DNA of 64,000 nucleotides from an uncultured Gammaproteobacteria bacterium (GCA_964474445.1 CAYYSJ010000003.1:17597-81596); one strand, 5' to 3'; positions 5,768 through 41,952 are shown, counted from the first letter of the stretch. The notes: generated from the sequence alone by a model not told the origin. Made by a program: numbers and translations.

Positions 5768-5861
5768 TTTTTTTATTACTCTCATGGATTTCCTCATATT
5801 CAGTAATTCTCAGCAAACTTATTGAAAAGATATAAGACCTTATAGTATAATAGCGTGTATT

Positions 5862-28113: not shown

Positions 28114-28176
28114 GGGAATTTACTTTAGCGAACAAATTTGAGGGAGTTGTAATGAGTTAGTAATGAATAGGAGAAA

Positions 28177-28935
28177 CTACCTGAAAGAAAGAAGTGGCTC
28201 AGAAGGACGAGGGAAATGAGCATAGTATTTGCTTTCGCCTTGTGGAGTATCTACGATAAAGTGTTGTAGCCATTCGTGTACTACTGTTTTGTCGCTCAGG
28301 GAATCCGGCCTAAAGGCAGCGGGGGGACGTCTAGATAAATCTCTTGTTCTCATTTGCAACCGGAGAGCACCTATTGCATTAGAACTTGTATTCTGGTCAA
28401 TGGTTACTCCAAAGGACGCCTTTGTTTTTGTCAGCCTGCCACTGAAATAAGGACGAAGCTCAGTGGATAAAGGCTCCTCGTGCGGCTGTAGAGAATCCCT
28501 CATAAACCGTACAGATGGGAGGATGGCCGTTGTAAAGCGCCATGTTCCTTCTTGTTCCTGTGAGAGGATTGTTGCTGAAAAAAAAGTTTCAAATTTGCTT
28601 TCCCCACTTTCAAATCCTCGAGCAAGCAGAAGCTTCGCTTGACTAGTAGGAACAGGAATGCCAGCAATGGTTGTTTGTTCAAGAGACAATGTTCGCTCAA
28701 AGAGAAATCGCACATGTTGATAGGCAGGATCTGTCTGAGAACCAGCTTCAGTCATTCCCATCTGTTGTGCTAATGCCCGTAAGTCTTCAAGCGCTCCTTC
28801 ATGCCGTTGCGTGGAGACACTAAGACCAGCCTCCATAAGTCCTACAGCAAGTACAAGCTGAGTAAAAGCGAGATTGTGCGGAAATTCTTCATTAGGAAAA
28901 TGTTTCCTTAAGATATCTGTCATGACCTCTGTCAT
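28177..28935 (-). CDS. Hypothetical protein B1 (252 aa), paralog of B2
   Basis: Its N-terminus (MTEVMTDILRKHFPNEEFP) and C-terminus (HEWLQHFIVDTPQGESKYYAHFPRPSEPLLSFR) align with B2 (MVERTLITSLREHFPDGDIP ... SEYLQHFVAETSHGGSQYYAHFPRPHTPLLVFK). Confidence 0.55.
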   Translation of the reverse strand: MTEVMTDILRKHFPNEEFPHNLAFTQLVLAVGLMEAGLSVSTQRHEGALEDLRALAQQMGMTEAGSQTDPAYQHVRFLFERTLSLEQTTIAGIPVPTSQAKLLLARGFESGESKFETFFSATILSQEQEGTWRFTTAILPSVRFMRDSLQPHEEPLSTELRPYFSGRLTKTKASFGVTIDQNTSSNAIGALRLQMRTRDLSRRPPAAFRPDSLSDKTVVHEWLQHFIVDTPQGESKYYAHFPRPSEPLLSFR

Positions 28936-28999
28936 ACAAGCAACCTAGCTATGTTACATGAAAAGACTGTAAAAAAGCAATAAAAAAAAGGTAAGATGC
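28936..28999 (-). repeat. Conserved A-to-B intergenic junction, copy 1
   Basis: Aligns in blocks with 30610-30676: acaagcaa / atg..ttacat / aaaag.actg.aaaaaag.aat / gtaagatg. On the minus strand it reads ..CATCTTAC..ATGTAA..TTGCTTGT-ATG. Confidence 0.6.
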
Positions 29000-29614
29000 T
29001 TATTTTGTACGAGTTGTGTGGGGAGAAGCATTGGCAGTATTTTTAGAGATGCCTTCAAGCATATGCACTGCTTTTGTCATGCCTTGTAATTCAGCACGTC
29101 TTGTGGGGCGATACTCGGTAACAGGCTGTTGTGTTTCTTCTTCCCTCAGACGATGTTGGATGTAGGTTAATCCTGTGGGGTCGTGTGCTAATTCTTGTCT
29201 CACGAGGGGTGCTGACTCTACTCCATGTTTTACTCCGCTTGCTATCAGTCGTGCAAGTTCTCGAAAGAGTGGGGGATAAACATGAGCAATAAGAGACTCT
29301 TGTGGAAGTTGTGGAATAGAAAGGGTCTCTGGATTGGGGAGAGAAGCGGCTGCAACTTCTGCTGCCCATGCATTCATGACATGCACAAATCCTGACACAT
29401 AATCAACGGTAAGCTGGCTTTCGTCAATGTCTGCTGCCTTGAGTGCGGTTGTTATTTCCTCTTTTTTACCTAAAACAGAAGCAAAGAGAGCATTTTCCAG
29501 GCTAAATGCCAATGCAACTCCTTCAGTATACATATGTTCAGGTACACTTTTTCTTTCCGATACTCCATCGTGGTGTTCTCTAAAAAATGGTTGTTCAGTG
29601 GTTTCTCCTACCAT
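29000..29614 (-). CDS. Hypothetical protein A1 (204 aa), paralog of A2
   Basis: FSLENALFASVLGKKEE...TVDYVSGFVHVMNAWAAEVAAASLPNPETLSIPQL aligns with A2 FTLENTLFAHLGGKQDPEE...TVDFVAGFAHIMTQKAAAIAAASRPNPATLPIPQL. Confidence 0.55.
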   Translation of the reverse strand: MVGETTEQPFFREHHDGVSERKSVPEHMYTEGVALAFSLENALFASVLGKKEEITTALKAADIDESQLTVDYVSGFVHVMNAWAAEVAAASLPNPETLSIPQLPQESLIAHVYPPLFRELARLIASGVKHGVESAPLVRQELAHDPTGLTYIQHRLREEETQQPVTEYRPTRRAELQGMTKAVHMLEGISKNTANASPHTTRTK

Positions 29615-29814
29615 ATTGGAGAGTGTAAAAAGGACATATAAGAATAGAGTAGGAAGATAATAACAGTCTGCTTAGGGACAGGTGACAAAATTGGCAAAAG
29701 AGCGAGATCGTGAATGATGCAACGTTGGTTTAACAGGAGAAGCAAACCAATCTAAAAGTTCTGACATAGCTCATGCTATTTTAGCAAGAGATTATGAAAG
29801 AGAGTGGGTAAAAG

Positions 29815-30609
29815 CTACTTAAAGACAAGAAGTGGGGTATGAGGGCGAGGGAAGTGAGCATAGTACTGACTTCCCCCATGTGAAGTTTCGGCAACAAAAT
29901 GTTGAAGATATTCACTAACAACTGTCTCTGGAGGTAAATCTCGTGGACCAAATTCATGAGGTGTTCGTCTTCCTGGAGGAGTTTTTCTCATTAAAGAGCG
30001 AAGTGCTGGGATAGCATTTGGAGTTGTTTTGTTGGGGTCTAATTGTACTAAAAACGTACCAGCTACTGAAGGAACCATACCTCCATTCACGATATGTCGT
30101 GCTGTTGGGAAAAGGGACATTTCTGCTGCAATACCAGCATCCTGTCTATCATAATAGTGGGAAAAAGAGAGAAATGCTGTTGTAAAACGAAGCACAGGAT
30201 CCTGGACAGGAGCAGGTGGGTTTCTGCTATAAATGGTTGCGCCATAAAGAGTATCAAATGATGGTTTGGCAGCATCATATCCTCGTGCAAGAAGGATAAG
30301 TGCACCACTACTTTCAAGCGGAATATCAGGGATGTGGGATAGTGTATTCTCAATAGTAATTCGTTTTTCATAGAGAAATCGTAGGTCTGGATATTGTATG
30401 GATAAATCGTCGGTAGTAACGGTAAGACCAAAATCTTCAGCTGCTTTTTTGAGGTCTTCTAAATAGCCTGTTCGTCTTCCTCCGCTGTTAACAATGTAAT
30501 GTTCGATAAGCCCCAGCGTGAGCATGAGTTGTGTCCGTCCTGGAGTTGTGGGGATGTCACCATCTGGAAAATGTTCTCGTAGTGAAGTAATGAGTGTTCG
30601 TTCTACCAT
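29815..30609 (-). CDS. Hypothetical protein B2 (264 aa), paralog of B1
   Basis: See B1. GC is elevated. Confidence 0.55.
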   Translation of the reverse strand: MVERTLITSLREHFPDGDIPTTPGRTQLMLTLGLIEHYIVNSGGRRTGYLEDLKKAAEDFGLTVTTDDLSIQYPDLRFLYEKRITIENTLSHIPDIPLESSGALILLARGYDAAKPSFDTLYGATIYSRNPPAPVQDPVLRFTTAFLSFSHYYDRQDAGIAAEMSLFPTARHIVNGGMVPSVAGTFLVQLDPNKTTPNAIPALRSLMRKTPPGRRTPHEFGPRDLPPETVVSEYLQHFVAETSHGGSQYYAHFPRPHTPLLVFK

Positions 30610-30676
30610 ACAAGCAATCTCATAATGAATTTACATAAAAGCACTGCAAAAAAGTAATGAAGAATGAGTAAGATGA
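30610..30676 (-). repeat. Conserved A-to-B intergenic junction, copy 2
   Basis: See copy 1 (28936-28999). Confidence 0.6.
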
Positions 30677-31282
30677 CTATCTTGGTGGAGTATTGTAGGG
30701 AGATATTCGAGCAAACGTTTCAAGTATTGTAAGGGCGTGTGTCATCCCTGAGAGTTCTGCCTGTCGTGTTGCAGGCGATTGAAAAGATGGGCGATTATGC
30801 TCTTCTTGGAGGTAGTGGTGGAGATACTCTATACCTGTTGGATCGTGTTCTAACTGTTCTCTAACTACAGGTGCCGTTTGTATTGCTTGTCTTACACCAT
30901 CGATTACTTCTTGTGTCAATTCTTCAAAAAGAACGGGGTGAGACATAGCAAGAAAAGAGTCTGAGGAGAGTTGTGGGATAGGGAGAGTTGCGGGATTTGG
31001 TCTTGAAGCTGCTGCGATTGCCGCGGCTTTCTGTGTCATAATATGAGCAAAACCTGCAACAAAATCAACAGTAAATTGCGTAGGTTCTATTCCTAACCCC
31101 CTCAAGGTTTCCTCAGGATCTTGTTTGCCTCCTAGGTGGGCAAACAAGGTATTCTCCAATGTAAATGCTGCTTGCACTCCCATTCTATGCATATGTTCTG
31201 TAAAAAGAAGTGCTTCAGCAGATGACTTAATTTCTTTTGTTTTAAAGCGCGGTTGTTCACGGTCAATGCTTTTCCTTGCCAT
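30677..31282 (-). CDS. Hypothetical protein A2 (201 aa), paralog of A1
   Basis: See A1. Confidence 0.55.
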   Translation of the reverse strand: MARKSIDREQPRFKTKEIKSSAEALLFTEHMHRMGVQAAFTLENTLFAHLGGKQDPEETLRGLGIEPTQFTVDFVAGFAHIMTQKAAAIAAASRPNPATLPIPQLSSDSFLAMSHPVLFEELTQEVIDGVRQAIQTAPVVREQLEHDPTGIEYLHHYLQEEHNRPSFQSPATRQAELSGMTHALTILETFARISPYNTPPR

Positions 31283-31502
31283 CCAAGAGAGTGTATGGAA
31301 TAAATGTGAGAAAGGAGTAAGAACACAATGGAAAATACTTGAGAAAGGATAGGAGTAACAAGGAAAATAGTGCTCTAGGATTATTCTTTATCACTTAAAA
31401 GTGATTTACAAACAGAGAGAAAAGAAAGCTTGTGTTATCCATAAGAGATGTGTATATTTAGGAGAGATTTGTAATAATTCTTACCAATTTATTACATACC
31501 TC

Positions 31503-31531
31503 TTGACAATCTCTTACTTATTCTATAAAAT
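31503..31531 (+). promoter_or_regulatory. Consensus promoter TTGACA-17-TAAAAT, 13 nt upstream of the ATG at 31545, with no Shine-Dalgarno sequence
   Basis: Read directly. It is divergent from the A2-B2-A1-B1-C cluster. Confidence 0.5.
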
Positions 31532-31544
31532 ACCCACTATTGCT

Positions 31545-32198
31545 ATGACAGTAGATCACCTCAACGGGAAAAATGGATTTGTTACTCCAGCAGCTTTAGA
31601 AAGAGCGAGAGGAGTTATTAAAGATGAAGCTGCACAAGAAGCAGCAAATAGACAGCATATTATTGATGAACATGAAGCCCAATTAGCAGCAGAAGCACAG
31701 AAAAAAGCTCAATGGATAGAAGAAGGTCGAGCGCAAGCACAAAAAGAAATTGCAGCAGCACAGAGAAAAGCGGCAGAAGAAGAAGCTAAAAGACGACAAG
31801 CAGCAGAACAGGCAGCAGTTAAGGCAAAAGCAGACAGAAGACAAGCTACTGATGACTTACTTAATTTAGAAGTTAATCTTGCAGAAGCATTCGGAAGATT
31901 CTCTCAACACAGTGTAGAAGCAGCAAGCACAACAACAGATAGAGATGCTGCACTTGTTGCAGCAGGTGAAGCGAAAGCTCAAGCAGCGTATACATCAGGG
32001 GATATTCACTTAGTTGCAGCAAGAAGTGGAGATCCAGATATATTAGAGCACTATAAATTAAGAAGACCTGATCAACCTGCTAATACTCCAGCACCAGATG
32101 GATTTGTTTTGAGAGTAGTTCCAGATGAGCCAGCACAAAAGGCAAAAGTAGAACCAGCTCCAGTTCCAGCTCCACGGAGAAAAATCTTTGGTAGATAA
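31545..32198 (+). CDS. Hypothetical Ala/Gln/Glu/Lys-rich coiled-coil protein (217 aa) with a Pro-rich C-terminus
   Basis: The supplied ORF starts at 31401, but that N-terminal extension spans the promoter. The internal ATG at 31545 is the likely start. The sequence is dominated by AEAQKKAQ / AAAQRKAAEEEAKRRQAAEQAA repeats. GC is high. Confidence 0.5.
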   Translation: MTVDHLNGKNGFVTPAALERARGVIKDEAAQEAANRQHIIDEHEAQLAAEAQKKAQWIEEGRAQAQKEIAAAQRKAAEEEAKRRQAAEQAAVKAKADRRQATDDLLNLEVNLAEAFGRFSQHSVEAASTTTDRDAALVAAGEAKAQAAYTSGDIHLVAARSGDPDILEHYKLRRPDQPANTPAPDGFVLRVVPDEPAQKAKVEPAPVPAPRRKIFGR

Positions 32199-32249
32199 TA
32201 GACAATTTTCTTCTTACACTTTCTCTTTTCATTTGGTATACTCCTTTTC

Positions 32250-32849
32250 ATGCAGATAGCATTATTTGGTGGAAGATTTGATCCAGTACACAATGGGCAC
32301 GTTGCAATTGCGAGTGAAGTCCTTAAGGCAGTTCCATCAGTTGATGAAGTATGGATGGTTCCTGATTACACGCATCATTGGAACCCCACAGTTGCCTCAT
32401 TTGCAGACAGGATGCAGATGCTCAAGATTATTGAACAGGATCCTTCAACAAACGCTCAGGGAAGAATCAAATCAAGTGATATCGGAGAAAAAGTTTCCCA
32501 TCTTCGCAATGGAATGACCGTGACTATTGATGTTATTCGTGAGCTACAGAAGAACACAACGAATACCTACATTTTTATTGCTGGATCAGACCAATTACCT
32601 AGGTTGCATGAATGGCATGATTACGAGGAGCTTCTGATGCGTCTTCCTTTCCTCATTTTCCCTAGGAAGGGTTATCAAACCTCAGGTGAATTACCACATG
32701 GTGCAATGTGGCTTTCAGATACACAATTTGAGCCAATGGATGATAGTGCAACACGAGTGAGACAATATTTAAAAGAAGGAAAAGATATTTCCCATCTTGT
32801 ACCAGAAAAAGTTGCAGAGTATATTAAAGAACATATGTTATATCAATAA
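32250..32849 (+). CDS. nadD: Nicotinate-nucleotide adenylyltransferase
   Basis: GGRFDPVHNGH (the (H/T)xGH nucleotidyltransferase motif) and ~200 aa. Confidence 0.8.
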   Translation: MQIALFGGRFDPVHNGHVAIASEVLKAVPSVDEVWMVPDYTHHWNPTVASFADRMQMLKIIEQDPSTNAQGRIKSSDIGEKVSHLRNGMTVTIDVIRELQKNTTNTYIFIAGSDQLPRLHEWHDYEELLMRLPFLIFPRKGYQTSGELPHGAMWLSDTQFEPMDDSATRVRQYLKEGKDISHLVPEKVAEYIKEHMLYQ

Positions 32850-32855
32850 ATCCAT

Positions 32856-33638
32856 ATGATATTAGAAATAAATGGAGAACAAAAGGCAAATGAAATTAGT
32901 AAGTGGCTGAAAGAGACGGTCCAAACTGCTGGATTCAGTAAGGCAGTTGTTGCGGTTTCGGGTGGCGTGGATAGTGCAGTATCACTCAATTTGGCAGTGC
33001 GAGCACTCGGCAAAGAAAATGTCTACGCGCTCCTCATGCCATATGGCAGGTTGAGCAATGAAGCGCTTGAGGATGGAAAGGCAATTGTCAGTGCCGTAGA
33101 CCTTGCAAAAGACCATGTTATGGTGAGAGATATTGCAACAGTTGTGAATATGATACTGAAGCAAGTTGAAGATGATACGCTCGATGCTGTTCGAAAAGGG
33201 AACATCATGGCCCGAATGAGAATGGTTTTCCTTTTTGATTTTGCTAAGAGTTTGCATGCACTTGTTGTTGGGACAGAAAATAAGTCGGAGCATTATTTGG
33301 GCTACTTTACCCGTTTTGGAGATGAAGCATCAGATATTGAACCGATTAGAAGTCTATACAAAACCCAAATTTGGGAAATGGCAAAATATCTGGGAGTTCC
33401 GCAACGGATTGTTGAAAAAGCCCCCAGTGCCAACCTATGGGAGGGACAATCGGATGAAGGTGAATTCGGTTTTTCCTATCTCGATGCAGATCGTGTGCTT
33501 TATCACTATTTTGAAGAAAGATTGCCAAAAGAGGGCATTGTGTCGCTGGGGTTACCAGAGCCATTGGTAGACAGTGTTTTACAATTTGTTGAAAAAAATG
33601 ATTTCAAACACCACGTTCCTCATGTTTTTGATCGTTGA
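32856..33638 (+). CDS. nadE: NH3-dependent NAD+ synthetase
   Basis: PP-loop SGGVDSAV motif and NadE length. It lies adjacent to nadD. Confidence 0.85.
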   Translation: MILEINGEQKANEISKWLKETVQTAGFSKAVVAVSGGVDSAVSLNLAVRALGKENVYALLMPYGRLSNEALEDGKAIVSAVDLAKDHVMVRDIATVVNMILKQVEDDTLDAVRKGNIMARMRMVFLFDFAKSLHALVVGTENKSEHYLGYFTRFGDEASDIEPIRSLYKTQIWEMAKYLGVPQRIVEKAPSANLWEGQSDEGEFGFSYLDADRVLYHYFEERLPKEGIVSLGLPEPLVDSVLQFVEKNDFKHHVPHVFDR

Positions 33639-33711
33639 GGAGTGATCATTAATATATTTCAAGTCAATCATAAATTGTAAATAATCATTTCCTTTGCTAC
33701 ACTAGTGCCAT

Positions 33712-34290
33712 ATGAGTGATGGTGGATCATCAGGTCTTTCTGGAACATTTGAGCTTATTGGTCAGGGAGCAAAAAAAGGAGCGCAAAACCTTGCCGGGGG
33801 TGTTGGTAACTTTGCAGGCAGTGCTGCAAAGCAAGTGACTGGAACAGGGGGAGTGGCTTCCGGTAATATGTCCGGATCTTTTGATTTAAAAGGAGGAGCA
33901 CCTCAATCAGTTGATCTTTTTGCTCCTGATGCAAAAAAGCCTGCTCAAAATCCTCAACAAGTTTTTGGCAATATGAAGCCTTTAACTGAGACAGGACAAA
34001 AAGTATTGGGAGGGGATAGGCAATATACGCAGGAAGAACTTGAAAAAATCCAATCGATTGAATCAGAGCTTCGATCTATGCATAAACAAATTAACAATAT
34101 AGAAGCTGATATGGAAAAGGTAAGACGAGAGAGGGAAGAGACCTATCAAAAACGTGTAGAGGATGATGCAATGAGAAATCAACAGAAGCAAATGACAAAC
34201 TTACAGCAACAAGAACAAAATGGACAAGTAGATCAGAATGTCTTTAAAGCAGCTCGTACAGCGGAACTTGCAAAAGGTGATGTAGGATAG
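33712..34290 (+). CDS. Hypothetical protein with a Gly-rich N-terminal half and a coiled-coil C-terminal half
   Basis: ORF only. No family recognised. Confidence 0.4.
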   Translation: MSDGGSSGLSGTFELIGQGAKKGAQNLAGGVGNFAGSAAKQVTGTGGVASGNMSGSFDLKGGAPQSVDLFAPDAKKPAQNPQQVFGNMKPLTETGQKVLGGDRQYTQEELEKIQSIESELRSMHKQINNIEADMEKVRREREETYQKRVEDDAMRNQQKQMTNLQQQEQNGQVDQNVFKAARTAELAKGDVG

Positions 34291-34345
34291 AAAATAACCT
34301 GATGCACTATTGGCATTTCATGAAGGTAATAAGTAAGTTATTTCT

Positions 34346-35713
34346 ATGTTAAAGCTTTACAATACACTAACTCGTTCGGTTGAAGAATTTGTCCCACTCA
34401 CAGACAATCGTGTTGGGATGTATTCTTGTGGGCCGACGGTCTATGACTACCAGCATATCGGTCATATGCGCCGTTATGTGGGGGATGATATTTTAGTCAA
34501 AGTTTTGCGAGCCAATGGCTATTCAGTCAAGCACGTGATGAACATTACTGACGTTGGTCATTTAGTTTCAGATGCGGATGAGGGTGAGGACAAGATGGAA
34601 AAAGGGGCAAAGAAATTTGGAAAGAGTGTCTGGGAAGTGGCAAGGATGTTTGAGGATCAATTTTGGCAATCAACAGATGCGCTGAATATTGAAAGACCGG
34701 ACAAAGTCATGCATGCAACAGATTATATTAAGGAACAGATACAACTTATTCGGGAATTGGAAGAAAAAGGCGTAACGTATAGGACGAATGACGGCATTTA
34801 TTTTGATACCTCAAAATTTCCTGACTATTTTAAACTTTCCCGTCAGAATCCAGAAGAATTAAAAGCTGGTGTCCGTGTAGACATGGGTGAGAAAAGAAAT
34901 GTTTCAGATTTTGCGTTATGGAAATTTTCTCCCAAAAATGAAAAACGGCAAATGGAATGGGAAAGTCCATGGGGTGTAGGATTTCCTGGGTGGCATATTG
35001 AATGTTCTGCGATGTCCATGAAGGAATTAGGCAATACCTTGGATATCCATACAGGAGGTATAGACCATATTGCTATTCACCATACGAATGAAATTGCACA
35101 GTCAGAATGTGCAACGGGACAACAATTTGTGAGGTACTGGGTTCATCATAACTTTTTGGTCGTTGAGAATACCAAAATGAGTAAATCTCTTGGAAATTTC
35201 ATAACAGTTCAGGATGTAGAAGCAAAAGGATACGACCCACTTGCTTTGCGATACTTGTATTTACAGACGCATTACAGACAGGAAATGAATTTTACGTGGG
35301 AGGCACTCGATGCTGCAGAGGCAGCGCTGAGGAAACTTCGAGGATATATAACAGATGAGCCAGATACTGCTCCGAATATTTCTTGGATGAAGAAATATAT
35401 GGATGCACTTAATGATGATTTAAATACTTCAAAAGCTTTAGCAACAGTCTGGGAGATGGTGAAAGACGAGAATCTTTTGTCAGGAGAAAAGAGAGCGACA
35501 CTGCTTGCGATGGATAAAGTTTTTGGATTGTCTCTTGATAAAAAAGAAGTGATTGAAGTGCCTCAAGAAATTATAGATCTGGTAAAAGAACGGGAAGTTT
35601 TCAGAAAAGCAGGAGATTGGGGTGCATCTGATGAGCTTCGAAAGAAAATTCAGGATTTAGGATTTCATATTAAAGATACTAAAGAAGGACCACAGATTAC
35701 TTCGGTAAAATAA
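34346..35713 (+). CDS. cysS: Cysteinyl-tRNA synthetase
   Basis: CGPTVYDYQHIGHMRRY (HIGH motif), KMSKSLGN, and the Cys/His zinc ligands. Confidence 0.95.
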   Translation: MLKLYNTLTRSVEEFVPLTDNRVGMYSCGPTVYDYQHIGHMRRYVGDDILVKVLRANGYSVKHVMNITDVGHLVSDADEGEDKMEKGAKKFGKSVWEVARMFEDQFWQSTDALNIERPDKVMHATDYIKEQIQLIRELEEKGVTYRTNDGIYFDTSKFPDYFKLSRQNPEELKAGVRVDMGEKRNVSDFALWKFSPKNEKRQMEWESPWGVGFPGWHIECSAMSMKELGNTLDIHTGGIDHIAIHHTNEIAQSECATGQQFVRYWVHHNFLVVENTKMSKSLGNFITVQDVEAKGYDPLALRYLYLQTHYRQEMNFTWEALDAAEAALRKLRGYITDEPDTAPNISWMKKYMDALNDDLNTSKALATVWEMVKDENLLSGEKRATLLAMDKVFGLSLDKKEVIEVPQEIIDLVKEREVFRKAGDWGASDELRKKIQDLGFHIKDTKEGPQITSVK

Positions 35714-35716
35714 GCC

Positions 35717-35745
35717 TTGTCATTCACTTCTGCTCTTGTTATAGT
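35717..35745 (+). promoter_or_regulatory. Promoter TTGTCA-17-TATAGT, 9 nt upstream of the ATG at 35755 (leaderless transcript)
   Basis: Read directly. The 21-mer tgttatagtactttcaatATG is near-identical to tgttatagtattttcggtATG at 37052-37074. Confidence 0.5.
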
Positions 35746-35754
35746 ACTTTCAAT

Positions 35755-36066
35755 ATGAGCCTTCGCGATCTCCTAGAAAGCAAACGGTATTTCCTAAAAA
35801 GTACACAGTGGATTGAAGCAGGAATATGGCGTGATGCTTGGCAAGCAGGTTATAGCCAAAAACAAGCAAATTGCGCATCAACGATTGAGAAAGCAAGAAG
35901 CTATCAGCTAGATGCTGATAGCTTTAGACAACAGGTTGCTGACCTAGCAGAAGCAAGAAATAGACGATTTAGATCAGGATTGCCCTCTCGAAGACCAAGG
36001 AAATCGTTTACTCTTCCATCTATATTTCGAAATGAAAGAACGTGGACTGAAGAACAGTTCCATTAA
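35755..36066 (+). CDS. Hypothetical small basic protein (103 aa)
   Basis: ORF with a C-terminus rich in Arg/Ser/Pro (RNRRFRSGLPSRRPRKS). No family recognised. Confidence 0.4.
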   Translation: MSLRDLLESKRYFLKSTQWIEAGIWRDAWQAGYSQKQANCASTIEKARSYQLDADSFRQQVADLAEARNRRFRSGLPSRRPRKSFTLPSIFRNERTWTEEQFH

Positions 36067-36151
36067 TTTATTTTATATCTGTTGTTTATCTGTCAGCTAT
36101 TTGTCCTCAAAATACTTTTCTTATCTGGTTGAATAAATAGGTAAGGATGAT

Positions 36152-36392
36152 ATGGTAGTTAATGAATTAGCTCGTTTTGTAGGGGCTGCTGTCGGCTATA
36201 TAAAGACTAGTAATTCGCATTGCTGAAAGTCCTTTGTCAGAATATGCTCCAGAAGATGTGAGAACACGTTTAAGGACTGATGCTGCTGATCGTTATCGTC
36301 AAGCTGTTGACGAGCCAAGATTACCTGGTGAAGAAGATGTGGCAGCAAGACATGTCAGAAGAGCATTGTCAGAGTTGATGAGGGTTTCATAA
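36152..36392 (+). pseudogene. Frameshifted small ORF, a paralog of the 36546-36761 ORF. Joining the two frames gives an ~80-aa protein.
   Basis: The ATG at 36152 has a good AAGGA Shine-Dalgarno sequence and opens a 24-codon frame ending at TGA 36224-36226. The +1 frame is open from 36219 to TAA 36390-36392 and has no start of its own. The N-terminus MVVNELARFVGAAVGYI resembles MVIGFGKAREFVPGVTVGEV of the downstream ORF, and both have Arg-rich C-termini. Confidence 0.4.
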
Positions 36393-36545
36393 ACGTATCG
36401 ATTTTCTTTGTTGACAGAGTATCAATGCTTATGGGTACCCTGTTTTAGATTCAATTACACACGGGCATAAACCCATCAGACTTTAAAAGCTATGATTTTA
36501 AGCTGTGGTCATTTAATGTAAGCATAAAGGAGGTGAGCATATAGT

Positions 36546-36761
36546 ATGGTGATAGGATTTGGAAAAGCAAGAGAATTTGTACCAGGAGTTACTGTAGGTG
36601 AAGTATCTGTCGATAGTGATAGAGCAAGAGCAATGAATCATGGTACACCAATGTTGGTAGACTATAGTGCAGTTGTTGCTGATGAAGAGTTTCATGAACT
36701 ACAAAGGCGAGAAGCTGTGGGTATGGAAAGGGCATTTCGAGCAGCGCGAAGAAGATCATGA
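36546..36761 (+). CDS. Hypothetical small protein (71 aa) with an Arg-rich C-terminus
   Basis: Strong Shine-Dalgarno sequence (AAAGGAGGT) 11 nt upstream. GC is high. Confidence 0.45.
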   Translation: MVIGFGKAREFVPGVTVGEVSVDSDRARAMNHGTPMLVDYSAVVADEEFHELQRREAVGMERAFRAARRRS

Positions 36762-37032
36762 TCCATTACCTTAATAAAGGGGCGATTCTGTCATACATTC
36801 TCATGATCGATTTCAAAAAGAACATCAGCCGAGATTTTCTGCCATTGATGTAAATGATAATATTGGTGACTAGTTATTGATAATATTCAAGAATCAAACA
36901 AAGATTTCACCCTCTGGCTCATCAAATACAACTCTTACAGACCGCATGAAATGCTTGATTATCGTATCCCTTAGTGTAGCTCATACCAACTCCTTTCAAC
37001 TGTTACCAATGTGACCTTGCTAGTAAACAACC

Positions 37033-37062
37033 TTGACAATTGATACAAAAATATGTTATAGT
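37033..37062 (+). promoter_or_regulatory. Promoter TTGACA-18-TATAGT, 9 nt upstream of the ATG at 37072 (leaderless transcript)
   Basis: Read directly. Confidence 0.5.
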
Positions 37063-37071
37063 ATTTTCGGT

Positions 37072-37221
37072 ATGACAACATCACGAGAACAAGGATCAAC
37101 ACGACCTGCAAAACCAACTATTGGTTATAGACTGCGAGATGTTGCTGTAAATGTTCTAGATCGATTATTTCGTGAAGATCATCCTTCTAGATGGATAGGT
37201 AGACGTCGTATCTCTAATTAA
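37072..37221 (+). CDS. Hypothetical very small basic protein (49 aa)
   Basis: The supplied ORF 37033..37221 begins at a TTG that is the -35 hexamer itself. The ATG at 37072 is the realistic start. Confidence 0.35.
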   Translation: MTTSREQGSTRPAKPTIGYRLRDVAVNVLDRLFREDHPSRWIGRRRISN

Positions 37222-37382
37222 ACTCTTCTAATTTCCCCAATTTTCTTACTTTCTGTTTTGTATTCTTTTTCGCTATACTAATATGAGTATTTCATGAAAA
37301 GATTGTTTTTTGCCCTTTTGGCCACAGGATTTACCATTTTATTTCTCTTTGTGACACTTCCCATTTTTGCAAAGATGTAGAT

Positions 37383-38039
37383 TTAGGAAAAAGGGAGCCG
37401 GCGTGTTGTAACTTCCGGCCGGTAGAATTCTACAGTCCAGTCACCTTGATCATTCTTTTTCGGTGTTCCTATGCTTGTACAGCCCAGGCGCTGGGCATCT
37501 CTCCATGCAGGAGTTGTTCTTGTTGCTTCCTCTTGTGATAGCCCTAGTGTAGATAAGGCATGGATGAATGCATTATAGTTATCACTGCGTGGGTCATTTT
37601 CCCAAATTGATCTTATCCCATCAACATGACCATATATGTTTTCAAAGTATCTCCAAACACTTGGAGTAATCTCCCTTAAGTAAGGCATTCCCTCATACCG
37701 CTGCCCTCGTAAACGATGCGTGGGTGGATATTTTAAATGAGTATTAAATTGGATAAGTCTTAATCTATCAGGAGTATCAATAATTTCTGCTATAAAAAAG
37801 ATCTCAGTATTATCCGTGCTCAAACTGACTTTTCTGTCATTTGCATTTGCTTCAATCGTATGGTACATCCCACCTCTTTTTGCCCGAAAAATACTAGCTG
37901 TGCGATCACAGGGTGCAATAGTCCTGTTATTGACGAGTGCTGTTTCTGCTCGGACAGCATGCCAATCAAGTTGTCGACCATAAATTGTAGGAACAGTTGG
38001 GGATACCAACGGACCTTTTTCTGTAACGGTTAAGGCCAT
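37383..38039 (-). CDS. Hypothetical protein (218 aa)
   Basis: ORF with GC ~50%. No family recognised. Confidence 0.45.
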   Translation of the reverse strand: MALTVTEKGPLVSPTVPTIYGRQLDWHAVRAETALVNNRTIAPCDRTASIFRAKRGGMYHTIEANANDRKVSLSTDNTEIFFIAEIIDTPDRLRLIQFNTHLKYPPTHRLRGQRYEGMPYLREITPSVWRYFENIYGHVDGIRSIWENDPRSDNYNAFIHALSTLGLSQEEATRTTPAWRDAQRLGCTSIGTPKKNDQGDWTVEFYRPEVTTRRLPFS

Positions 38040-38188
38040 AGCACAAATAGCTTTGGTACTATAACCATTTCGAGACTAAAAGTCAATTACTATAACATAA
38101 AAAGAATTGCCTGGTTTAAAGATATGTTTTACTTATTTCTTACACAATTTTTATCATGCTTTAAGCATGTTTCAAGATAATTGCCTGC

Positions 38189-38569
38189 ATGTTAGAAAAA
38201 GAAATACTCAGTATGGATGAGGTAATGGGAATGGTTGGCGGAAAAGTAGATGGTGAAGAGGTAAGAATTATATTAGCTACAGGTCAAGCGACAGAGGATG
38301 TTCCAGCTGATATGGATCCTTATCACATGCTTCAAGAGATTCTTTCAAGAAGAGCCTTTGTACAAATCCCTCAATGGATGAGTAATTCACGACATAAACA
38401 ACTTGCCGTTAGGTTAGTTAGTTCACCTTTATGGATTACTACTCCTGAAGAGGGAAGAAAAAACTTAAGCTTAAGGATAGTAAAAGGGCACTTTAGAAAT
38501 ACTGATAGAACAATTACTCAAGTAACAACGCAATTGCAACAAATGAGAGAAAGAAGAAAACTTCAATGA
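38189..38569 (+). CDS. Hypothetical protein (126 aa)
   Basis: ORF only. Confidence 0.4.
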   Translation: MLEKEILSMDEVMGMVGGKVDGEEVRIILATGQATEDVPADMDPYHMLQEILSRRAFVQIPQWMSNSRHKQLAVRLVSSPLWITTPEEGRKNLSLRIVKGHFRNTDRTITQVTTQLQQMRERRKLQ

Positions 38570-38647
38570 TAAGAGAGATAACCTCCTCGTATTTTATTAA
38601 ATTTCCTTTTTGACAATTACCATTTCTTCAGCATATACTCACTTGCT

Positions 38648-39481
38648 ATGTGGTGGAAAGAAAAACGACCTCGTTTTACATTTGATATTAGTGGGGATTT
38701 CCATTTGGGACATCCAAATCCTCCTGATCGTAATCCTACAGAAAAAGAATTAAGAACATCTCTACAAAGCGCACTAGATCGTAAAGTGGATGGCTACATA
38801 GTGGTTGGAGATGGCGTACATGATAATAGCATCAAAGATGCACACAGACTTGCTGCTTTATACAAAGAATATACCAGTAAAGGCCTTCGCATGTTTGTTA
38901 TGAAAGGCAATCATGATGAAATACCTGAAATTGGTGCCATTCTTGCTCAGGATGGTGGCGTAGAACTTCTGGATGGACAGGTTGTGAAGATGAGAAAAGG
39001 CTTAAGAACCGTTGCCTTGATTGGGGCAACAAGTGAGTTTGGTCCTGATCATACGAATTGGTGGAAAGCAGAAAAAGAAGAAGATCGCAATAGAGCCAGA
39101 CAACGGGTAAGGCAAGAAGCAAGAAAATATGAAGCATTTCTACAACAAGCACTTCGAAGGACAAGAGCACGAGATATTATTGTTGTTACTCATCGAGGGA
39201 TTATCCCAGAAACAGTGGGAAGTAAAGCACAATCAAGAGAAAAAGGATCAGAACTATCTCCACAAATTGAGACGTATGCAAAGGTTATCAGACAAGAGTC
39301 TAGGACACCTATCTTAAGACGGAAGCGTCGTATTCATTTTGTGCATGGACATGATCATGGAGATTATCCCTGGGAAGGTGGACTTACTGGATGGATTGGG
39401 CATGTTCCAGTCTATAATGATGCAGCACCTCTTCGTAAGAGAATAGGGCTTCCAACAATTGCCAGAACAATGCAATTGTAA
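38648..39481 (+). CDS. Calcineurin-like metallophosphoesterase
   Basis: Carries the ordered MPP motifs: DISGDFHLG (GDxHG), VVGDGVHD (GDxxD), MKGNHD (GNH[DE]), VVTHRG and FVHGHDHG (GHxH). Confidence 0.7.
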   Translation: MWWKEKRPRFTFDISGDFHLGHPNPPDRNPTEKELRTSLQSALDRKVDGYIVVGDGVHDNSIKDAHRLAALYKEYTSKGLRMFVMKGNHDEIPEIGAILAQDGGVELLDGQVVKMRKGLRTVALIGATSEFGPDHTNWWKAEKEEDRNRARQRVRQEARKYEAFLQQALRRTRARDIIVVTHRGIIPETVGSKAQSREKGSELSPQIETYAKVIRQESRTPILRRKRRIHFVHGHDHGDYPWEGGLTGWIGHVPVYNDAAPLRKRIGLPTIARTMQL

Positions 39482-39531
39482 CCCCTCTCTATCTTGAGGT
39501 TTCCTTACTGTCTTCTCTGTTTCTTCTTGCA

Positions 39532-40494
39532 GTGAGCCGATATAACAAACAAGAGGTTGTCTATTCATCTTGTATGGCATTTGTATCAGAACTAGCATTA
39601 CGCGACGTCCCATATAGAAATTTGGTAGGGACACTCCAGACAATAGACAAAGTGGCACAGCATACAGGAGCACTCAAAGGATATGTGACTGAAGAGCATG
39701 CAGAAAGTCCTTTTAGAAAAAGGGAAGAAGGTGGTATTGATCCAGCTCAAGTTACGGGAGGGAGTCCGTTACCAGGGCTTATGAGATTATCACGACTTGT
39801 TGCAGCCACAGAGCGCTTGGAGGCATTTCATCCTACGATGGATGACCGAAAAGATGCTGTAGCACATGAAATAGAAAGGAGAAGGGAGGAGGCTCCAACA
39901 GCATATAACGTGTTAAAGAATTTACAAAGAAATGGAGTAGGGAAAGGATGGCTTAGTACGTTTGCTGACCAGGCAGATGGGTACTATCCACCTCAAGAAG
40001 AGAAGAGCCATACCTATGCGAATATTGGTGTTGTGATACGAAGACCGTTGAGTGAACCTGTTTTGAAAGCATTAGAATGGGTTGCAATGACTGTCCCAAA
40101 AGATGGTATACCACAAATGGCTCATCATGAAACACAAGCACAACAGCATGTCCTGTCTCGGATCCTTGGCAAATTAGGAAGAGAGGGGAATACAGAAAGA
40201 ATGTTGCCAAGAGGACAATCCCTTGCTGTGCTCTATACAGTTCTTAGTCATCTTGTTTTGCAAAGGGGTGCAGAGGGAAGTTTTGCAAATCCCTATGAAG
40301 AAAACCTTTTTCAAACACTTCTTGGATACTCAGGCGCGGGTCAGGGAAACCTTCCTGAAACAACACGACAGGTACGGCTTGTTATAGAAAGGTTATTTGC
40401 ATCTGAAGGTTCTTCTCCAGTAATACCAACGTATACAAGAAGAGGTGGATTTATTTTAACCCAACGAAGTCGATCTTTGGTAAGTACCCTCTAA
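39532..40494 (+). CDS. Hypothetical protein (320 aa)
   Basis: ORF with a GTG start (an alternative ATG lies at 39574). GC is high. No family recognised. Confidence 0.4.
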   Translation: MSRYNKQEVVYSSCMAFVSELALRDVPYRNLVGTLQTIDKVAQHTGALKGYVTEEHAESPFRKREEGGIDPAQVTGGSPLPGLMRLSRLVAATERLEAFHPTMDDRKDAVAHEIERRREEAPTAYNVLKNLQRNGVGKGWLSTFADQADGYYPPQEEKSHTYANIGVVIRRPLSEPVLKALEWVAMTVPKDGIPQMAHHETQAQQHVLSRILGKLGREGNTERMLPRGQSLAVLYTVLSHLVLQRGAEGSFANPYEENLFQTLLGYSGAGQGNLPETTRQVRLVIERLFASEGSSPVIPTYTRRGGFILTQRSRSLVSTL

Positions 40495-40738
40495 CATATT
40501 CCCAAAATTTTTCTGCAGTTTTGTTGCTAAATTTGCCATATTTTCCACCTTCTGCTTCCGAACAAAGCATATTCTCATATCGTCGGATGATAGGAAGGAG
40601 TTCATCTCCTAACTCATTGAGTTGTTGCTGATACATCTTTTGATCTTTTGCATAGTTATCATGCACAATCTTAAATGCATTAAAGAGATCTTTATGATTT
40701 TCGAGCATATCTTGAAAGTATTGCTGAGACTTTGTCAT
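40451..40738 (-). CDS. Hypothetical small protein (95 aa)
   Basis: ORF with host-like low GC. Its 3' end overlaps the convergent upstream gene. Confidence 0.4.
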   Translation of the reverse strand: MTKSQQYFQDMLENHKDLFNAFKIVHDNYAKDQKMYQQQLNELGDELLPIIRRYENMLCSEAEGGKYGKFSNKTAEKFWEYVRGYLPKIDFVGLK

Positions 40739-40782
40739 AGGAAATCCATTGTAACAGATTGAGGAATTTGTTGGGAAGATAG

Positions 40783-41058
40783 TTATTGTCTTGTACTTCC
40801 GTGATACCCATCATTTCCGCCAGTGGAGGAATGTCTATAGATTCTTCCGTCTTGCTGCATATATGTTCCATTTTTATGAACTTGTTCACTGGGAATAACA
40901 TACGCTCCTAGTTCTGCAGCTTTTACTTCTGCAGCTATAGCTCCAGCCCAGTCATGGGAATACAGTGCGAAAACATTTCTGCCAGTAGCATCTTTTGCAA
41001 CAGCATGGTGAAATGCTCTTTCTCCACTCATTGCTTCAACTCGTACCATATATGGCAT
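40783..41058 (-). CDS. Hypothetical small protein (91 aa)
   Basis: ORF only. Confidence 0.3.
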   Translation of the reverse strand: MPYMVRVEAMSGERAFHHAVAKDATGRNVFALYSHDWAGAIAAEVKAAELGAYVIPSEQVHKNGTYMQQDGRIYRHSSTGGNDGYHGSTRQ

Positions 41059-41085
41059 TATATCTAAAAAAAAGAAAAAATAAAT

Positions 41086-41952
41086 CTACTTTTGTGCAAG
41101 GGTAATAAAGAGGATACCAAGAAGGATAATAAGAGTGGGGAGAATATGATTTTTTATTTTCTCCTTGAAAAATAGCCATCCAAAAATGGAAGAAAATATA
41201 ATATTACTATTCCCAACAGCGTTTACATACACGGGCAAGGTCAGTGAATATGCCAAAAATTGGAAAAATACTTGAGCAGCATCAAAAGCTCCTGCAGGGA
41301 AAACTTTTATTCCCATGTTGAAGGATAGGAGTTTTTTAAATCCTTTCCTATCTGCAAGGTATGCAACAGGAGTGAAACAAATTGCCCAGAGAATTTGAAA
41401 GAAGGATGTATAAAAATAGGGAGTTGAATTATCTATTGCCAATTTTTGAAGTGCGCCTACAATACTCCATAATACAGCAACAATAATGATGAGCATGACT
41501 CCTTTCTCTTTTGCGATTGCTTTAAATGGAGAAAGGATATGTTTGGTGTCATGATCAAAATGCAAAAAGTACACACCTACTACTATAACAATAATGCCTA
41601 CTATTCCTAACGGAGTTGGGAAAAGATGATTAATAAAAAACTGTGTTGCAATCATTAGTACTAACTGAAGTGAAAGCATGGGCGTGGTAAGAGAAAGAGG
41701 AGATAGGTGAATTGCTTTAATAAAAAGTGTAAATGCTAAAGAATCTAAGATAAGTCGTCCCAAAACAGAAATCCAAAATGCCTGATCGAGATGTGGAATT
41801 CCAAATAACAGCAATGGAGAAAAAAGAATGGATGATACCACTAGAACGCTCCATGCCATGAGAATAGGATTTATTCGAATGGATTTTTTCTTAAAATAGG
41901 CATTTTGCATGCCAGTGGTTAGTGCAAAGAGCAGAGAATAAAGAAACCACAT
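41086..41952 (-). CDS. EamA/DMT-superfamily membrane transporter (10 transmembrane segments)
   Basis: Two similar halves of five transmembrane helices each, ~290 aa, and hydrophobic throughout. Confidence 0.6.
   Translation of the reverse strand: MWFLYSLLFALTTGMQNAYFKKKSIRINPILMAWSVLVVSSILFSPLLLFGIPHLDQAFWISVLGRLILDSLAFTLFIKAIHLSPLSLTTPMLSLQLVLMIATQFFINHLFPTPLGIVGIIVIVVGVYFLHFDHDTKHILSPFKAIAKEKGVMLIIIVAVLWSIVGALQKLAIDNSTPYFYTSFFQILWAICFTPVAYLADRKGFKKLLSFNMGIKVFPAGAFDAAQVFFQFLAYSLTLPVYVNAVGNSNIIFSSIFGWLFFKEKIKNHILPTLIILLGILFITLAQK

What the first reader, a model, noticed from the sequence alone, without database searches (positions are those of the whole stretch)
36100..40500. Second high-GC island: Arg-rich mini-proteins (one frameshifted), a metallophosphoesterase and four unknown proteins
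The stretch from 36.1 to 40.5 kb has ~48-52% GC. It contains a frameshifted ~80-aa ORF (36152-36392) paralogous to the downstream 71-aa ORF (36546-36761), both with Arg-rich C-termini. It also holds a 49-aa basic protein expressed leaderlessly from TTGACA-18-TATAGT, a divergent gene pair (218 aa on the minus strand, 126 aa on the plus strand), a calcineurin-like metallophosphoesterase with all five motifs, and a 320-aa unknown protein. Only the MPP matches a known family. A nuclease/phosphoesterase with unknown partners on a foreign-composition island is typical of uncharacterised defence or mobile-element cargo.
Basis: partly seen in the sequence, partly recalled or inferred. Interest (0 to 1): 0.65.

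Follow-up and report, generated by a model that had tools for sequence, protein, structure and literature searches.

The report
Variable orphan-gene patch with a phosphoesterase
This stretch of a Levybacteria (candidate phyla radiation) chromosome is not a high-GC island but a fast-changing slot between two conserved genes, holding one very divergent metallophosphoesterase and seven arginine-rich proteins with no detectable relatives, and nothing shows it is a defence system or mobile element.

Summary
The genes are real, but the headline is wrong. The region is 39.9% GC against 39.0% for the window, and no 300-bp window reaches 48%. The "frameshifted paralogue" is not similar to the 71-aa ORF (shuffle P=0.99).

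Confirmed points:
- The ORF map, the divergent 218/126-aa pair and the TTGACA-18-TATAGT promoter 9 nt before the 49-aa ORF. This leaderless layout precedes at least 13 other ORFs in the window.
- A 277-aa metallophosphoesterase with all five motifs invariant across four Levybacteria homologues.

The region fills the slot between cysS and a conserved 95-aa gene. In 21 compared relatives this slot is 0.7-6 kb with different contents. The phosphoesterase recurs in only about five. The 306-aa protein has no relative among 1.84 billion representatives. No relatives were found for the 218- and 126-aa proteins in less sensitive searches.

The real anomaly is in the proteins: eight consecutive ORFs have 8-20% Arg (background 4.2%), little Lys, raised GC2 and host-like GC3.

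No tRNA, integrase, att-like repeats, phage, plasmid or PADLOC matches were found.

Best reading: a native, fast-turnover accessory slot. Defence or mobile-element cargo is neither supported nor excluded. Modest interest.

The parts
34346..35713 (+). cysS (cysteinyl-tRNA synthetase). Conserved left boundary of the variable slot.
   Evidence: Pfam tRNA-synt_1e is listed for the identical gene in L083. The protein is 49-75% identical in the compared loci.
35717..35745 (+). Promoter-like site TTGTCA-17-TATAGT with a TG extension. The -10 element ends 9 nt before the ATG of the 103-aa ORF.
   Evidence: It shares the 22-nt motif TGTTATAGTAnTTTCnnTATGA with the promoter at 37054 (repeat D1).
35755..36066 (+). 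103-aa orphan ORF. Arg 13.6%, pI 10.2.
   Evidence: Periodicity p=9e-4. No family match. No relative in the 149 related loci. Singleton cluster.
36152..36226 (+). 24-codon ORF with an AAGGA Shine-Dalgarno-like sequence upstream.
   Evidence: Read directly from the sequence. No coding periodicity (p=0.31). Status unresolved.
36204..36392 (+). Open +1 frame. The listed ORF starts at TTG 36234 (52 aa, Arg 19%, no Lys).
   Evidence: Periodicity p=3e-4, or 2e-5 when counted from 36204. Not similar to the 71-aa ORF.
36546..36761 (+). 71-aa ORF with a GGAGG Shine-Dalgarno at 36529-36533. Arg 14%, C-terminus ...AARRRS.
   Evidence: Periodicity p=3e-7. Weak but significant similarity to a 98-aa ORF in the same position just after cysS in L003 (score 56, z=6.2, 0 of 2000 shuffles reach it).
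37033..37062 (+). Promoter-like site TTGACA-18-TATAGT (11 of 12 matches, TG extension).
37072..37221 (+). 49-aa basic ORF (Arg 20%, pI 11.6). Its ATG is 9 nt after the -10 element, so the transcript would be leaderless.
   Evidence: GC1/GC2/GC3 = 0.54/0.54/0.08, p=3.5e-7. Promoter geometry.
37294..37380 (+). 28-aa hydrophobic ORF, MKRLFFALLATGFTILFLFVTLPIFAKM.
   Evidence: Kyte-Doolittle 19-residue maximum 2.45. 59% identical over 27 aa to a stretch inside the same slot in L162 (tblastn E=2e-6 in a four-locus database).
37383..38039 (-). 218-aa orphan ORF. Arg 10%. Its codon-usage score of 0.11 is below the lowest training gene (0.15).
   Evidence: Longer than any open frame in 1000 shuffles. 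Only a self hit in the 5.8-billion-protein word-indexed search. No phage, plasmid or viral hit. The AlphaFold model is unusable (pLDDT 37).
38058..38086 (-). Promoter-like site TTGACT-17-TATAGT for the 218-aa gene. The -10 element ends 18 nt before the ATG.
38189..38569 (+). 126-aa orphan ORF, divergent from the 218-aa gene across a 149-nt spacer.
   Evidence: Periodicity p=1.6e-4. No family match. No hit in phages or in related loci.
38610..38639 (+). Promoter-like site TTGACA-18-TATACT. The -10 element ends 8 nt before the phosphoesterase ATG.
38648..39481 (+). 277-aa metallophosphoesterase with an intact active-site set: D17/H19, G54-D55..H58, G87-N88-H89-D90, H182, G234-H235..H237.
   Evidence: Alignment A1 with four Levybacteria homologues, 23-36% identical. 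All four homologues match Pfam PF00149. PHROG 1649 match at 8e-10. The A1 profile hits Mre11/SbcD in the PDB at 2e-9, over motifs I-III only.
39574..40494 (+). 306-aa orphan ORF (320 aa if it starts at GTG 39532), predicted all-helical. Its last 44 nt overlap the 3' end of the 95-aa gene.
   Evidence: Only a self hit among 1.84 billion representatives by phmmer. One search agrees. AlphaFold pLDDT 37. The PPR hit in the PDB is a repeat-summing artefact.
40451..40738 (-). Conserved 95-aa gene of unknown function. Right boundary of the variable slot.
   Evidence: 37-83% identical in about 70 Levybacteria loci.

Best explanation
The region is the content of one variable chromosomal slot in a Candidatus Levybacteria (Patescibacteria) genome. 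The slot lies between the convergent conserved genes cysS and a 95-aa gene.

Shown:
- It is not compositionally foreign DNA.
- Its one assignable gene is a highly diverged binuclear-metal phosphoesterase with a complete catalytic motif set.
- That gene is an intermittent resident of this same slot in related Levybacteria.
- It diverges far faster than its neighbours: 36% identity against 69% for CysRS in the same genome pair.
- Around it sit seven soluble, Arg-rich, Lys-poor proteins with no detectable relatives. The exception is the 71-aa protein, which has one weak positional homologue.
- Four of the genes (103-aa, 49-aa, 218-aa and the phosphoesterase) follow near-consensus sigma-70-type promoters with no or very short leaders. 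This layout is usual for this genome.

Inferred:
- These are resident lineage-specific genes that turn over and diverge quickly. They are not a recently inserted element.
- The phosphoesterase hydrolyses a phosphodiester substrate. Nucleic acid is slightly favoured, because motif II reads GDxxH as in Mre11/SbcD.
- The phosphoesterase is transcribed from its own promoter together with the 306-aa gene.
- The small basic proteins probably bind nucleic acid.

No step of any joint mechanism is demonstrated.
For: - Composition: GC 39.9% vs 39.0%. GC3 is host-like or lower. Codon scores are host-like for six of the eight ORFs.
- Promoters: the same -10-to-ATG spacing of 5-10 nt is found at 13 or more other ORFs in the window, including the DNA-alkylation-repair and EamA genes.
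- Flanking genes are ordinary: NadD-like, NAD synthase and CysRS on one side; EamA, a transglycosylase-associated protein, erythromycin esterase and DNA alkylation repair on the other.
- Synteny: cysS and the 95-aa gene are linked in 21 loci. Their spacing is 0.7-6.0 kb there and 4.74 kb here.
- A phosphoesterase homologue lies in the slot in L003, L004, L006 and L027, and next to the 95-aa gene in L097.
- All five motifs are invariant.
- The 71-aa ORF has a positional homologue in L003. The 28-aa peptide has one in L162.
- Coding is supported by ORF length and periodicity.
- There is no tRNA, Rfam hit or att-like repeat.
Against: - Eight consecutive ORFs are strongly Arg-rich and Lys-poor with raised GC2. 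Their Arg is 8.4-20%, against 4.2 +/- 1.5% in 30 long genes. A run of eight has permutation P<1e-5. This is what partly ameliorated foreign genes could look like.
- The 218-aa and 103-aa ORFs have codon scores below every training gene.
- The two small proteins that recur in this slot in relatives are missing here. These are a Zn-ribbon membrane protein (11 of 17 loci) and a protein of about 150 aa (8 of 17). The slot has therefore been remodelled.
- All relatives are distant, so a recent insertion cannot be excluded.
- No function was obtained for any orphan. Both AlphaFold models failed.
Confidence: 0.6

Rival explanations
1. A new defence or conflict system. The phosphoesterase would act as a nuclease effector, working with the 126-aa and 306-aa proteins and possibly the divergent 218-aa protein. 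It would sit in a chromosomal hotspot, as defence genes often do.
For: - The slot is hypervariable across Levybacteria.
- The phosphoesterase diverges much faster than its neighbours.
- Motif II and the best PDB hits are Mre11/SbcD-like.
- One distant homologue (L027) matches the PADLOC candidate family PDC-S10 over its full length, E=7e-16.
- Patescibacteria-only defence genes of unknown fold exist (PMC12366544).
Against: - No window protein matches any PADLOC model. For the phosphoesterase the best is PDC-S35 at E=0.078, and PDC-S10 is not listed even at E<=10.
- The proposed partners are never found with the phosphoesterase in relatives. There it sits next to a ~150-aa family member (L004, L006), other unrelated genes (L003, L027) or directly beside the 95-aa gene (L097).
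- No known defence genes are nearby.
- PDC-S10 is, to my knowledge, a computational candidate without experimental proof.
Confidence: 0.12
2. A remnant of an old integrated element, for example a Patescibacteria phage or another mobile element. Its silent sites would have drifted to host composition while its proteins keep a higher-GC amino-acid signature.
For: - Arg-rich, Lys-poor proteins with raised GC2 and host-like GC3.
- Orphan status of the proteins.
- The phosphoesterase's best library match is a phage family, PHROG 1649, at 8e-10.
- The codon scores of the 218-aa and 103-aa ORFs are atypical.
Against: - No integrase, transposase, tRNA or flanking repeats.
- No tblastn hit in 50,697 phage records or 72,556 plasmids, and no relative in IMG/VR contigs.
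- The phosphoesterase's only real homologues are chromosomal Levybacteria genes in the same slot.
- Similar Arg-rich orphans occur elsewhere in the window, at 5.5-6.1 kb and 27.5-31.3 kb, so the trait may belong to the lineage's own orphan genes.
Confidence: 0.15
3. Some of the small ORFs (the 24-codon piece, the 52-aa, 49-aa and 103-aa ORFs) are not genes. They would be chance frames or decayed remains, so the 'mini-protein' part of the finding would be an artefact.
For: - The 24-codon piece has no coding periodicity (p=0.31).
- These ORFs have no homologues.
- NCBI's annotation carries the 103-aa and 71-aa ORFs but not the 49-aa one, which is recorded only from a Logan assembly.
Against: - Strong three-base periodicity: 49-aa ORF p=3.5e-7, 52-aa p=3e-4, 103-aa p=9e-4.
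- Near-consensus promoters sit at the usual leaderless distance before the 49-aa and 103-aa ORFs.
Confidence: 0.1

Closest known systems
Calcineurin-like metallophosphoesterase superfamily (Pfam PF00149), nearest to the Mre11/SbcD nuclease branch
   Same: - All five metal-binding and catalytic motifs are present and invariant in the local family.
- Motif II reads GDxxH, as in the Mre11 sequence aligned.
- The best solved-structure matches are Mre11, Rad32 and SbcD (2e-9 to 1e-5).
   Different: - The window protein does not reach any Pfam or NCBIfam threshold on its own.
- The PDB matches cover only about 90 N-terminal residues. Cyclic-nucleotide and glycerophosphodiester phosphodiesterases (Rv0805, Icc, GpdQ) also match.
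- It is 277 aa long. No match extends beyond the catalytic core.
- No Rad50/SbcC-type ATPase was recognised in the locus.
PADLOC phage-defence candidate PDC-S10, and NCBIfam 'anti-phage phosphoesterase' NF053862
   Same: These are also single-gene phosphoesterases. One Levybacteria homologue (L027) matches PDC-S10 over its full length (E=7e-16). One A1 member matches NF053862 weakly (2e-4).
   Different: - The window protein has no PDC-S10 match even at E<=10.
- Its three closest homologues match only over motif-sized stretches, at E 2e-4 to 5e-3.
- The resemblance is at superfamily level only.
Chromosomal variable hotspots (plasticity zones) between conserved core genes
   Same: The flanks are conserved (cysS and the 95-aa gene). 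The content between them differs in every one of 21 related loci, with many singleton genes.
   Different: - The comparison spans genus-level or deeper distances (CysRS 49-75% identical), not strains.
- There is no recombinase, repeat or tRNA landmark.
- The contents in relatives are mostly small membrane proteins and ordinary enzymes such as DoxX, PEBP and HAD. They are not recognised defence genes.
Mycobacteriophage Gp48 metallophosphoesterase-like nuclease (PMC12287305)
   Same: A stand-alone metallophosphoesterase-like protein reported to damage DNA in a phage-host conflict (abstract).
   Different: It is phage-encoded and counter-defensive. The window protein has no tblastn match in the phage collection.

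Membership tests
Metallophosphoesterase superfamily (PF00149) | Five motifs: DxH, GDxx[DH], GNH[DE], H, GHxH | tested here: met
   D17, H19, G54, D55, H58, G87, N88, H89, D90, H182, G234, H235 and H237 are invariant in alignment A1.
Metallophosphoesterase superfamily (PF00149) | Match to the family profile above its curated threshold | tested here: inconclusive
   The window protein has no PF00149 hit at E<=1. Its four homologues (23-36% identical) match, best 8e-17. PHROG 1649 matches at 8e-10 over residues 11-240. Membership therefore rests on transitive homology plus the motifs.
Metallophosphoesterase superfamily (PF00149) | Four-layer alpha/beta sandwich fold | not testable with these tools
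Both single-sequence slots were used on the orphan proteins.
Mre11/SbcD nucleases | Homology extending beyond the shared phosphoesterase core into the nuclease-specific C-terminal part | tested here: not met
   The A1 profile aligns only profile positions about 5-103 to Mre11/SbcD chains of 333-738 residues. The protein is 277 aa.
Mre11/SbcD nucleases | Partner Rad50/SbcC ATPase gene alongside | tested here: not met
   No such protein among the ORFs of 31.4-45.7 kb scanned with Pfam. The rest of the genome was not examined.
Genomic island / integrated mobile element | Nucleotide composition different from the host | tested here: not met
   39.9% vs 39.0% GC. GC3 is host-like.
Genomic island / integrated mobile element | Integrase or transposase, tRNA target, flanking direct repeats | tested here: not met
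   Zero tRNAs in the window. Only short chance-level repeats. No recombinase family hit.
Genomic island / integrated mobile element | Present in some close relatives and absent in others | tested here: inconclusive
   The slot content differs in all 21 related loci, but the nearest have only 73-75% CysRS identity. All contigs of the same strain, from six sequencing runs, are 100% identical.
Known or candidate anti-phage defence systems (PADLOC-DB 2.0) | Match of any encoded protein to a system model | tested here: not met
   Nothing at or below E=0.01 within the slot. The conserved 95-aa boundary gene has a weak partial hit to PDC-M01A (0.0035). The phosphoesterase does not match PDC-S10.
   No BLASTP alignment. 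Local alignment score 18 against a shuffle mean of 25.1, P=0.99.
Patescibacteria-specific defence genes LdgA / DdgA (PMC12366544) | Sequence homology | not testable with these tools
   The sequences are not in the held text or supplements. The 306-aa protein is excluded indirectly, because it has no homologue at all.

The most novel reading that the evidence does not exclude
The phosphoesterase, its downstream 306-aa helical orphan, the upstream 126-aa protein and perhaps the divergent 218-aa protein form a previously unseen conflict system (defence or host-directed) confined to one Levybacteria lineage. More broadly, Arg-rich, Lys-poor orphans with host-like silent sites would mark a distinct class of recently born or captured genes in these reduced genomes.
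Probability: 0.1. Interest if true: 0.6.

Novelty: new member of a known kind. Interest (0 to 1): 0.3.

Why it matters
As it stands, this is mainly a correction. There is no high-GC island here, no paralogous mini-protein pair, and no evidence for defence or mobility.

What remains of value:
- A clearly delimited fast-turnover slot between cysS and a conserved 95-aa gene across Levybacteria.
- A very divergent but catalytically intact phosphoesterase lineage tied to that slot.
- A cluster of expressed-looking orphan proteins with an inverted Arg/Lys balance.

Few defence systems are known in Patescibacteria, and much of their gene content is unexplained. A slot like this is a reasonable place to test orphan genes experimentally. 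The sequence alone gives no reason to rank it above many similar hypothetical-protein patches.

Tried and rejected
1. Word-indexed homology searches for the 218-aa, 306-aa and 277-aa proteins returned only the query. That tool also missed the 34%-identical L006 phosphoesterase. 'Orphan' is therefore firm only for the 306-aa protein, which was re-tested by exhaustive phmmer.
2. Single-sequence AlphaFold models of the 218-aa and 306-aa proteins had pLDDT 37. No fold search was run on them.
3. The 306-aa protein hit designer pentatricopeptide-repeat proteins in the PDB at E=2.8e-6. I rejected this: one 40-residue stretch matched eight identical repeats at about 4 bits each, and no single stretch was significant.
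4. A PADLOC PDC-S10 link appeared when the phosphoesterase homologues were scanned. Only the most distant homologue matches it properly, and the window protein does not.
5. Phage, plasmid and IMG/VR searches were all empty.
6. Rfam gave nothing at gathering or E<=1 thresholds.
7. Pairwise shuffle tests among all the small Arg-rich ORFs of the window and its closest relatives gave one significant pair only, the 71-aa ORF with the L003 98-aa ORF.
8. A search for paralogy with the other Arg-rich orphan clusters in the window found none.
9. A literature search for Levybacteria plus metallophosphoesterase returned nothing.

Full report
WHAT IS THERE

The window is a chromosome segment of a Candidatus Levybacteria (Patescibacteria) bacterium. 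Its cysteinyl-tRNA synthetase (34346-35713) is at most 75% identical to any locus compared, and the best matches are Levybacteria or Patescibacteria metagenome-assembled genomes. Contigs 100% identical to the window occur in six sequencing runs with three accession series.

The ORFs between cysS and the next conserved gene, a 95-aa gene at 40451-40738 on the minus strand, are:

| Coordinates | Strand | Size | Note |
|---|---|---|---|
| 35755-36066 | + | 103 aa | |
| 36152-36226 | + | 24 codons | followed by a +1 frame open to 36392; listed ORF of 52 aa from TTG 36234 |
| 36546-36761 | + | 71 aa | |
| 37072-37221 | + | 49 aa | |
| 37383-38039 | - | 218 aa | |
| 38189-38569 | + | 126 aa | |
| 38648-39481 | + | 277 aa | phosphoesterase |
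| 39574-40494 | + | 306 aa | 320 aa if it starts at GTG 39532 |

CHECKING THE OBSERVATION

The central claim of 48-52% GC is wrong.
- The region is 39.9% GC and the window 39.0%. That is well inside the spread of 4.4-kb windows, 36.7-42.4%.
- The highest 300-bp window is 47.3%.

The claimed paralogy between the 'frameshifted' ORF and the 71-aa ORF is not supported.
- BLASTP finds nothing at E<=100.
- The best local alignment scores below the shuffle mean (P=0.99).
- The frame geometry is as described, but there is no homologue to show that the two pieces were once one gene.
- Only the 3' piece looks coding.

The rest of the description holds.
- The divergent 218/126-aa pair is present.
- The TTGACA-18-TATAGT promoter sits 9 nt before the 49-aa ORF.
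- The C-termini are Arg-rich.
- The phosphoesterase motifs are present.
- No other protein has a family match in Pfam, NCBIfam, PHROGs or PADLOC.

The ORFs are more than chance.
- The three longest open frames exceed every one of 1000 shuffles.
- All ORFs except the 24-codon piece show significant three-base periodicity. For the 49-aa ORF, GC1/GC2/GC3 = 0.54/0.54/0.08 and p=3.5e-7.

THE REAL COMPOSITIONAL SIGNAL

The anomaly lies in the proteins, not in the DNA.

| Measure | Eight ORFs, 35755-40494 | 30 long genes of the window |
|---|---|---|
| Arg | 8.4-20% | 4.2 +/- 1.5% (max 7.5%) |
| Lys | 0-6.5% | 7.0% |
| GC2 | 0.38-0.54 | 0.37 |
| GC3 | 0.08-0.32 | 0.29 |

- A run of eight such ORFs has permutation P<1e-5.
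- None has a hydrophobic segment, so all look soluble and cytoplasmic.
- The trait is not unique to this region. Similar Arg-rich orphans lie at 5519-6071 and 27493-31282.
- The small ORFs in this slot in the four closest relatives (L003, L004, L006, L037) are also Arg-rich.

CONTEXT AND SYNTENY

- The flanking genes are ordinary. On one side are a NadD-like gene, NAD synthase and CysRS. On the other are an EamA transporter, a transglycosylase-associated protein, erythromycin esterase and a DNA alkylation repair gene.
- There are no tRNAs, no Rfam matches and no att-like repeats.
- cysS and the 95-aa gene are neighbours in 21 related loci. They are separated by 0.7-6.0 kb there and by 4.74 kb here.
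- The contents of the slot differ everywhere. Among the first 17 loci, a Zn-ribbon membrane protein recurs in 11 and a protein of about 150 aa in 8. Both are absent here.
- Other loci carry DoxX, PEBP, HAD or alpha/beta-hydrolase genes and many singletons.
- A homologue of the phosphoesterase lies in the slot in L003, L004, L006 and L027, and next to the 95-aa gene in L097.
- None of the other window ORFs has a relative in about 150 related loci. There are two weak exceptions:
  - the 71-aa ORF with a 98-aa ORF just after cysS in L003 (z=6.2);
  - the 28-aa peptide with a stretch in L162 (59% identity).
- The slot is therefore a turnover site at clade scale. Every relative is distant, so recency cannot be judged.

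THE PHOSPHOESTERASE

- On its own the protein reaches no Pfam or NCBIfam threshold. It has no PDB sequence match.
- It does match PHROG 1649 (8e-10). It is 23-36% identical to four Levybacteria proteins that all match PF00149.
- In that alignment the residues of all five motifs are invariant.
- A profile of the alignment finds Mre11, Rad32 and SbcD first (2e-9). It also finds Rv0805, Icc, GpdQ and the MPE nuclease, and only over motifs I-III.
- Motif II reads GDxxH, as in the aligned Mre11. From general knowledge of the superfamily this leans towards a nuclease-type enzyme, but it is not diagnostic.
- No SbcC/Rad50-like gene is nearby.
- It diverges much faster than its neighbours: 36% identity against 69% for CysRS and 73% for the 95-aa protein in the same genome pair.

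EXPRESSION SIGNALS

- Near-consensus promoters precede the 103-aa ORF (35717), the 49-aa ORF (37033) and the phosphoesterase (38610). In each the -10 element ends 8-9 nt before the ATG.
- The 218-aa gene (38086, minus strand) has an 18-nt gap.
- The same leaderless layout precedes at least 13 other ORFs in the window. Examples are the DNA-alkylation-repair and EamA genes. The signals are therefore native, not exotic.
- No promoter or terminator was predicted between the phosphoesterase and the 306-aa gene. Co-transcription is inferred from this.

THE ORPHANS

- The 306-aa protein has no relative among 1.84 billion representative proteins by exhaustive phmmer.
- The 218-aa protein returned only itself in the word-indexed search. 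That search is weaker evidence, because it also missed a known 34%-identical homologue of the phosphoesterase.
- All seven window proteins looked up from the slot are singleton clusters at 90% identity.
- Both AlphaFold models were unusable (pLDDT 37).
- The apparent PPR hit for the 306-aa protein is a repeat-summing artefact.

DEFENCE OR MOBILE ELEMENT?

- Nothing in the window matches PADLOC.
- The PDC-S10 candidate family is matched convincingly only by the most distant phosphoesterase homologue (L027). The window protein does not match it.
- Phage, plasmid and viral-contig searches are empty.
- The proposed partner genes never accompany the phosphoesterase in relatives.
- Literature context: few defence systems are known in Patescibacteria, and lineage-restricted defence genes of unknown fold do exist (PMC12366544). 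The hypothesis therefore cannot be dismissed, but no evidence here supports it.

VERDICT

This is a real gene cluster that was misdescribed as a GC island. The best reading is a native, fast-turnover accessory slot (about 0.6). It carries a divergent but intact phosphoesterase and Arg-rich orphan proteins.

The rival readings are:
- an ameliorated remnant of a mobile element (about 0.15);
- a new conflict system (about 0.12);
- partly spurious small ORFs (about 0.1).

Interest is modest.

Noticed in passing
window 27493-31282 (minus strand): Five adjacent ORFs (206, 252, 204, 264 and 201 aa) with no family listed on the identical contig L083 and Arg-over-Lys composition. They include a duplicated two-gene module: 252~264 aa at 40% identity (E=1e-51) and 204~201 aa at 44% (E=2e-46).
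   Followed up: partly
window 5519-5767 and 5862-6071: Two more small Arg-rich, Lys-poor ORFs. One is 82 aa with Arg 18% and the other is 69 aa with Arg 13%. An extended -10 TGATATAGT lies at 5496 and a TTGAAA-18-TATAAT promoter at 5822. They have the same character as the mini-proteins in the finding.
   Followed up: no
window 37294-37380; L162 8862-8942: A 28-aa hydrophobic ORF (MKRLFFALLATGFTILFLFVTLPIFAKM) lies between the 49-aa and 218-aa genes. It is 59% identical to a stretch in the same cysS-to-95-aa slot of a related contig, so it is likely a real small membrane peptide.
   Followed up: partly
whole window: A promoter-like -35/-10 pair ends 5-10 nt before an ATG at 16 ORFs. Examples are the starts at 4110, 16940, 17423, 18033, 33712, 41952, 44990, 51961 and 58153. 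This suggests that leaderless mRNAs are common in this organism. TGNTATAGT occurs 9 times, against 1.65 expected.
   Followed up: partly
window 40451-40738 (minus strand) and about 70 related loci: The 95-aa protein is conserved across Levybacteria (37-83% identity, 30 invariant positions among six sequences) but has no Pfam family. It is linked to cysS in the 21 loci that contain both genes.
   Followed up: partly
window 40783-41058 (minus strand): A 91-aa orphan ORF lies between the 95-aa gene and the EamA transporter. Those two genes are directly adjacent in L099 and L162, so this is a second small lineage-specific insertion.
   Followed up: no
window 27383-41736 versus L001, L002, L083, L085, L086, L089: Contigs from six sequencing runs (SRR12266072/73/74/76, ERR3317248, SRR31070047) are 100% identical to the window over 1.1-11 kb. 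One clone appears to recur across datasets.
   Followed up: no
window 40451-40494: The 306-aa ORF and the convergent 95-aa gene overlap by 44 nt at their 3' ends. The orphan's last 14 codons therefore lie antisense to a conserved C-terminus.
   Followed up: no
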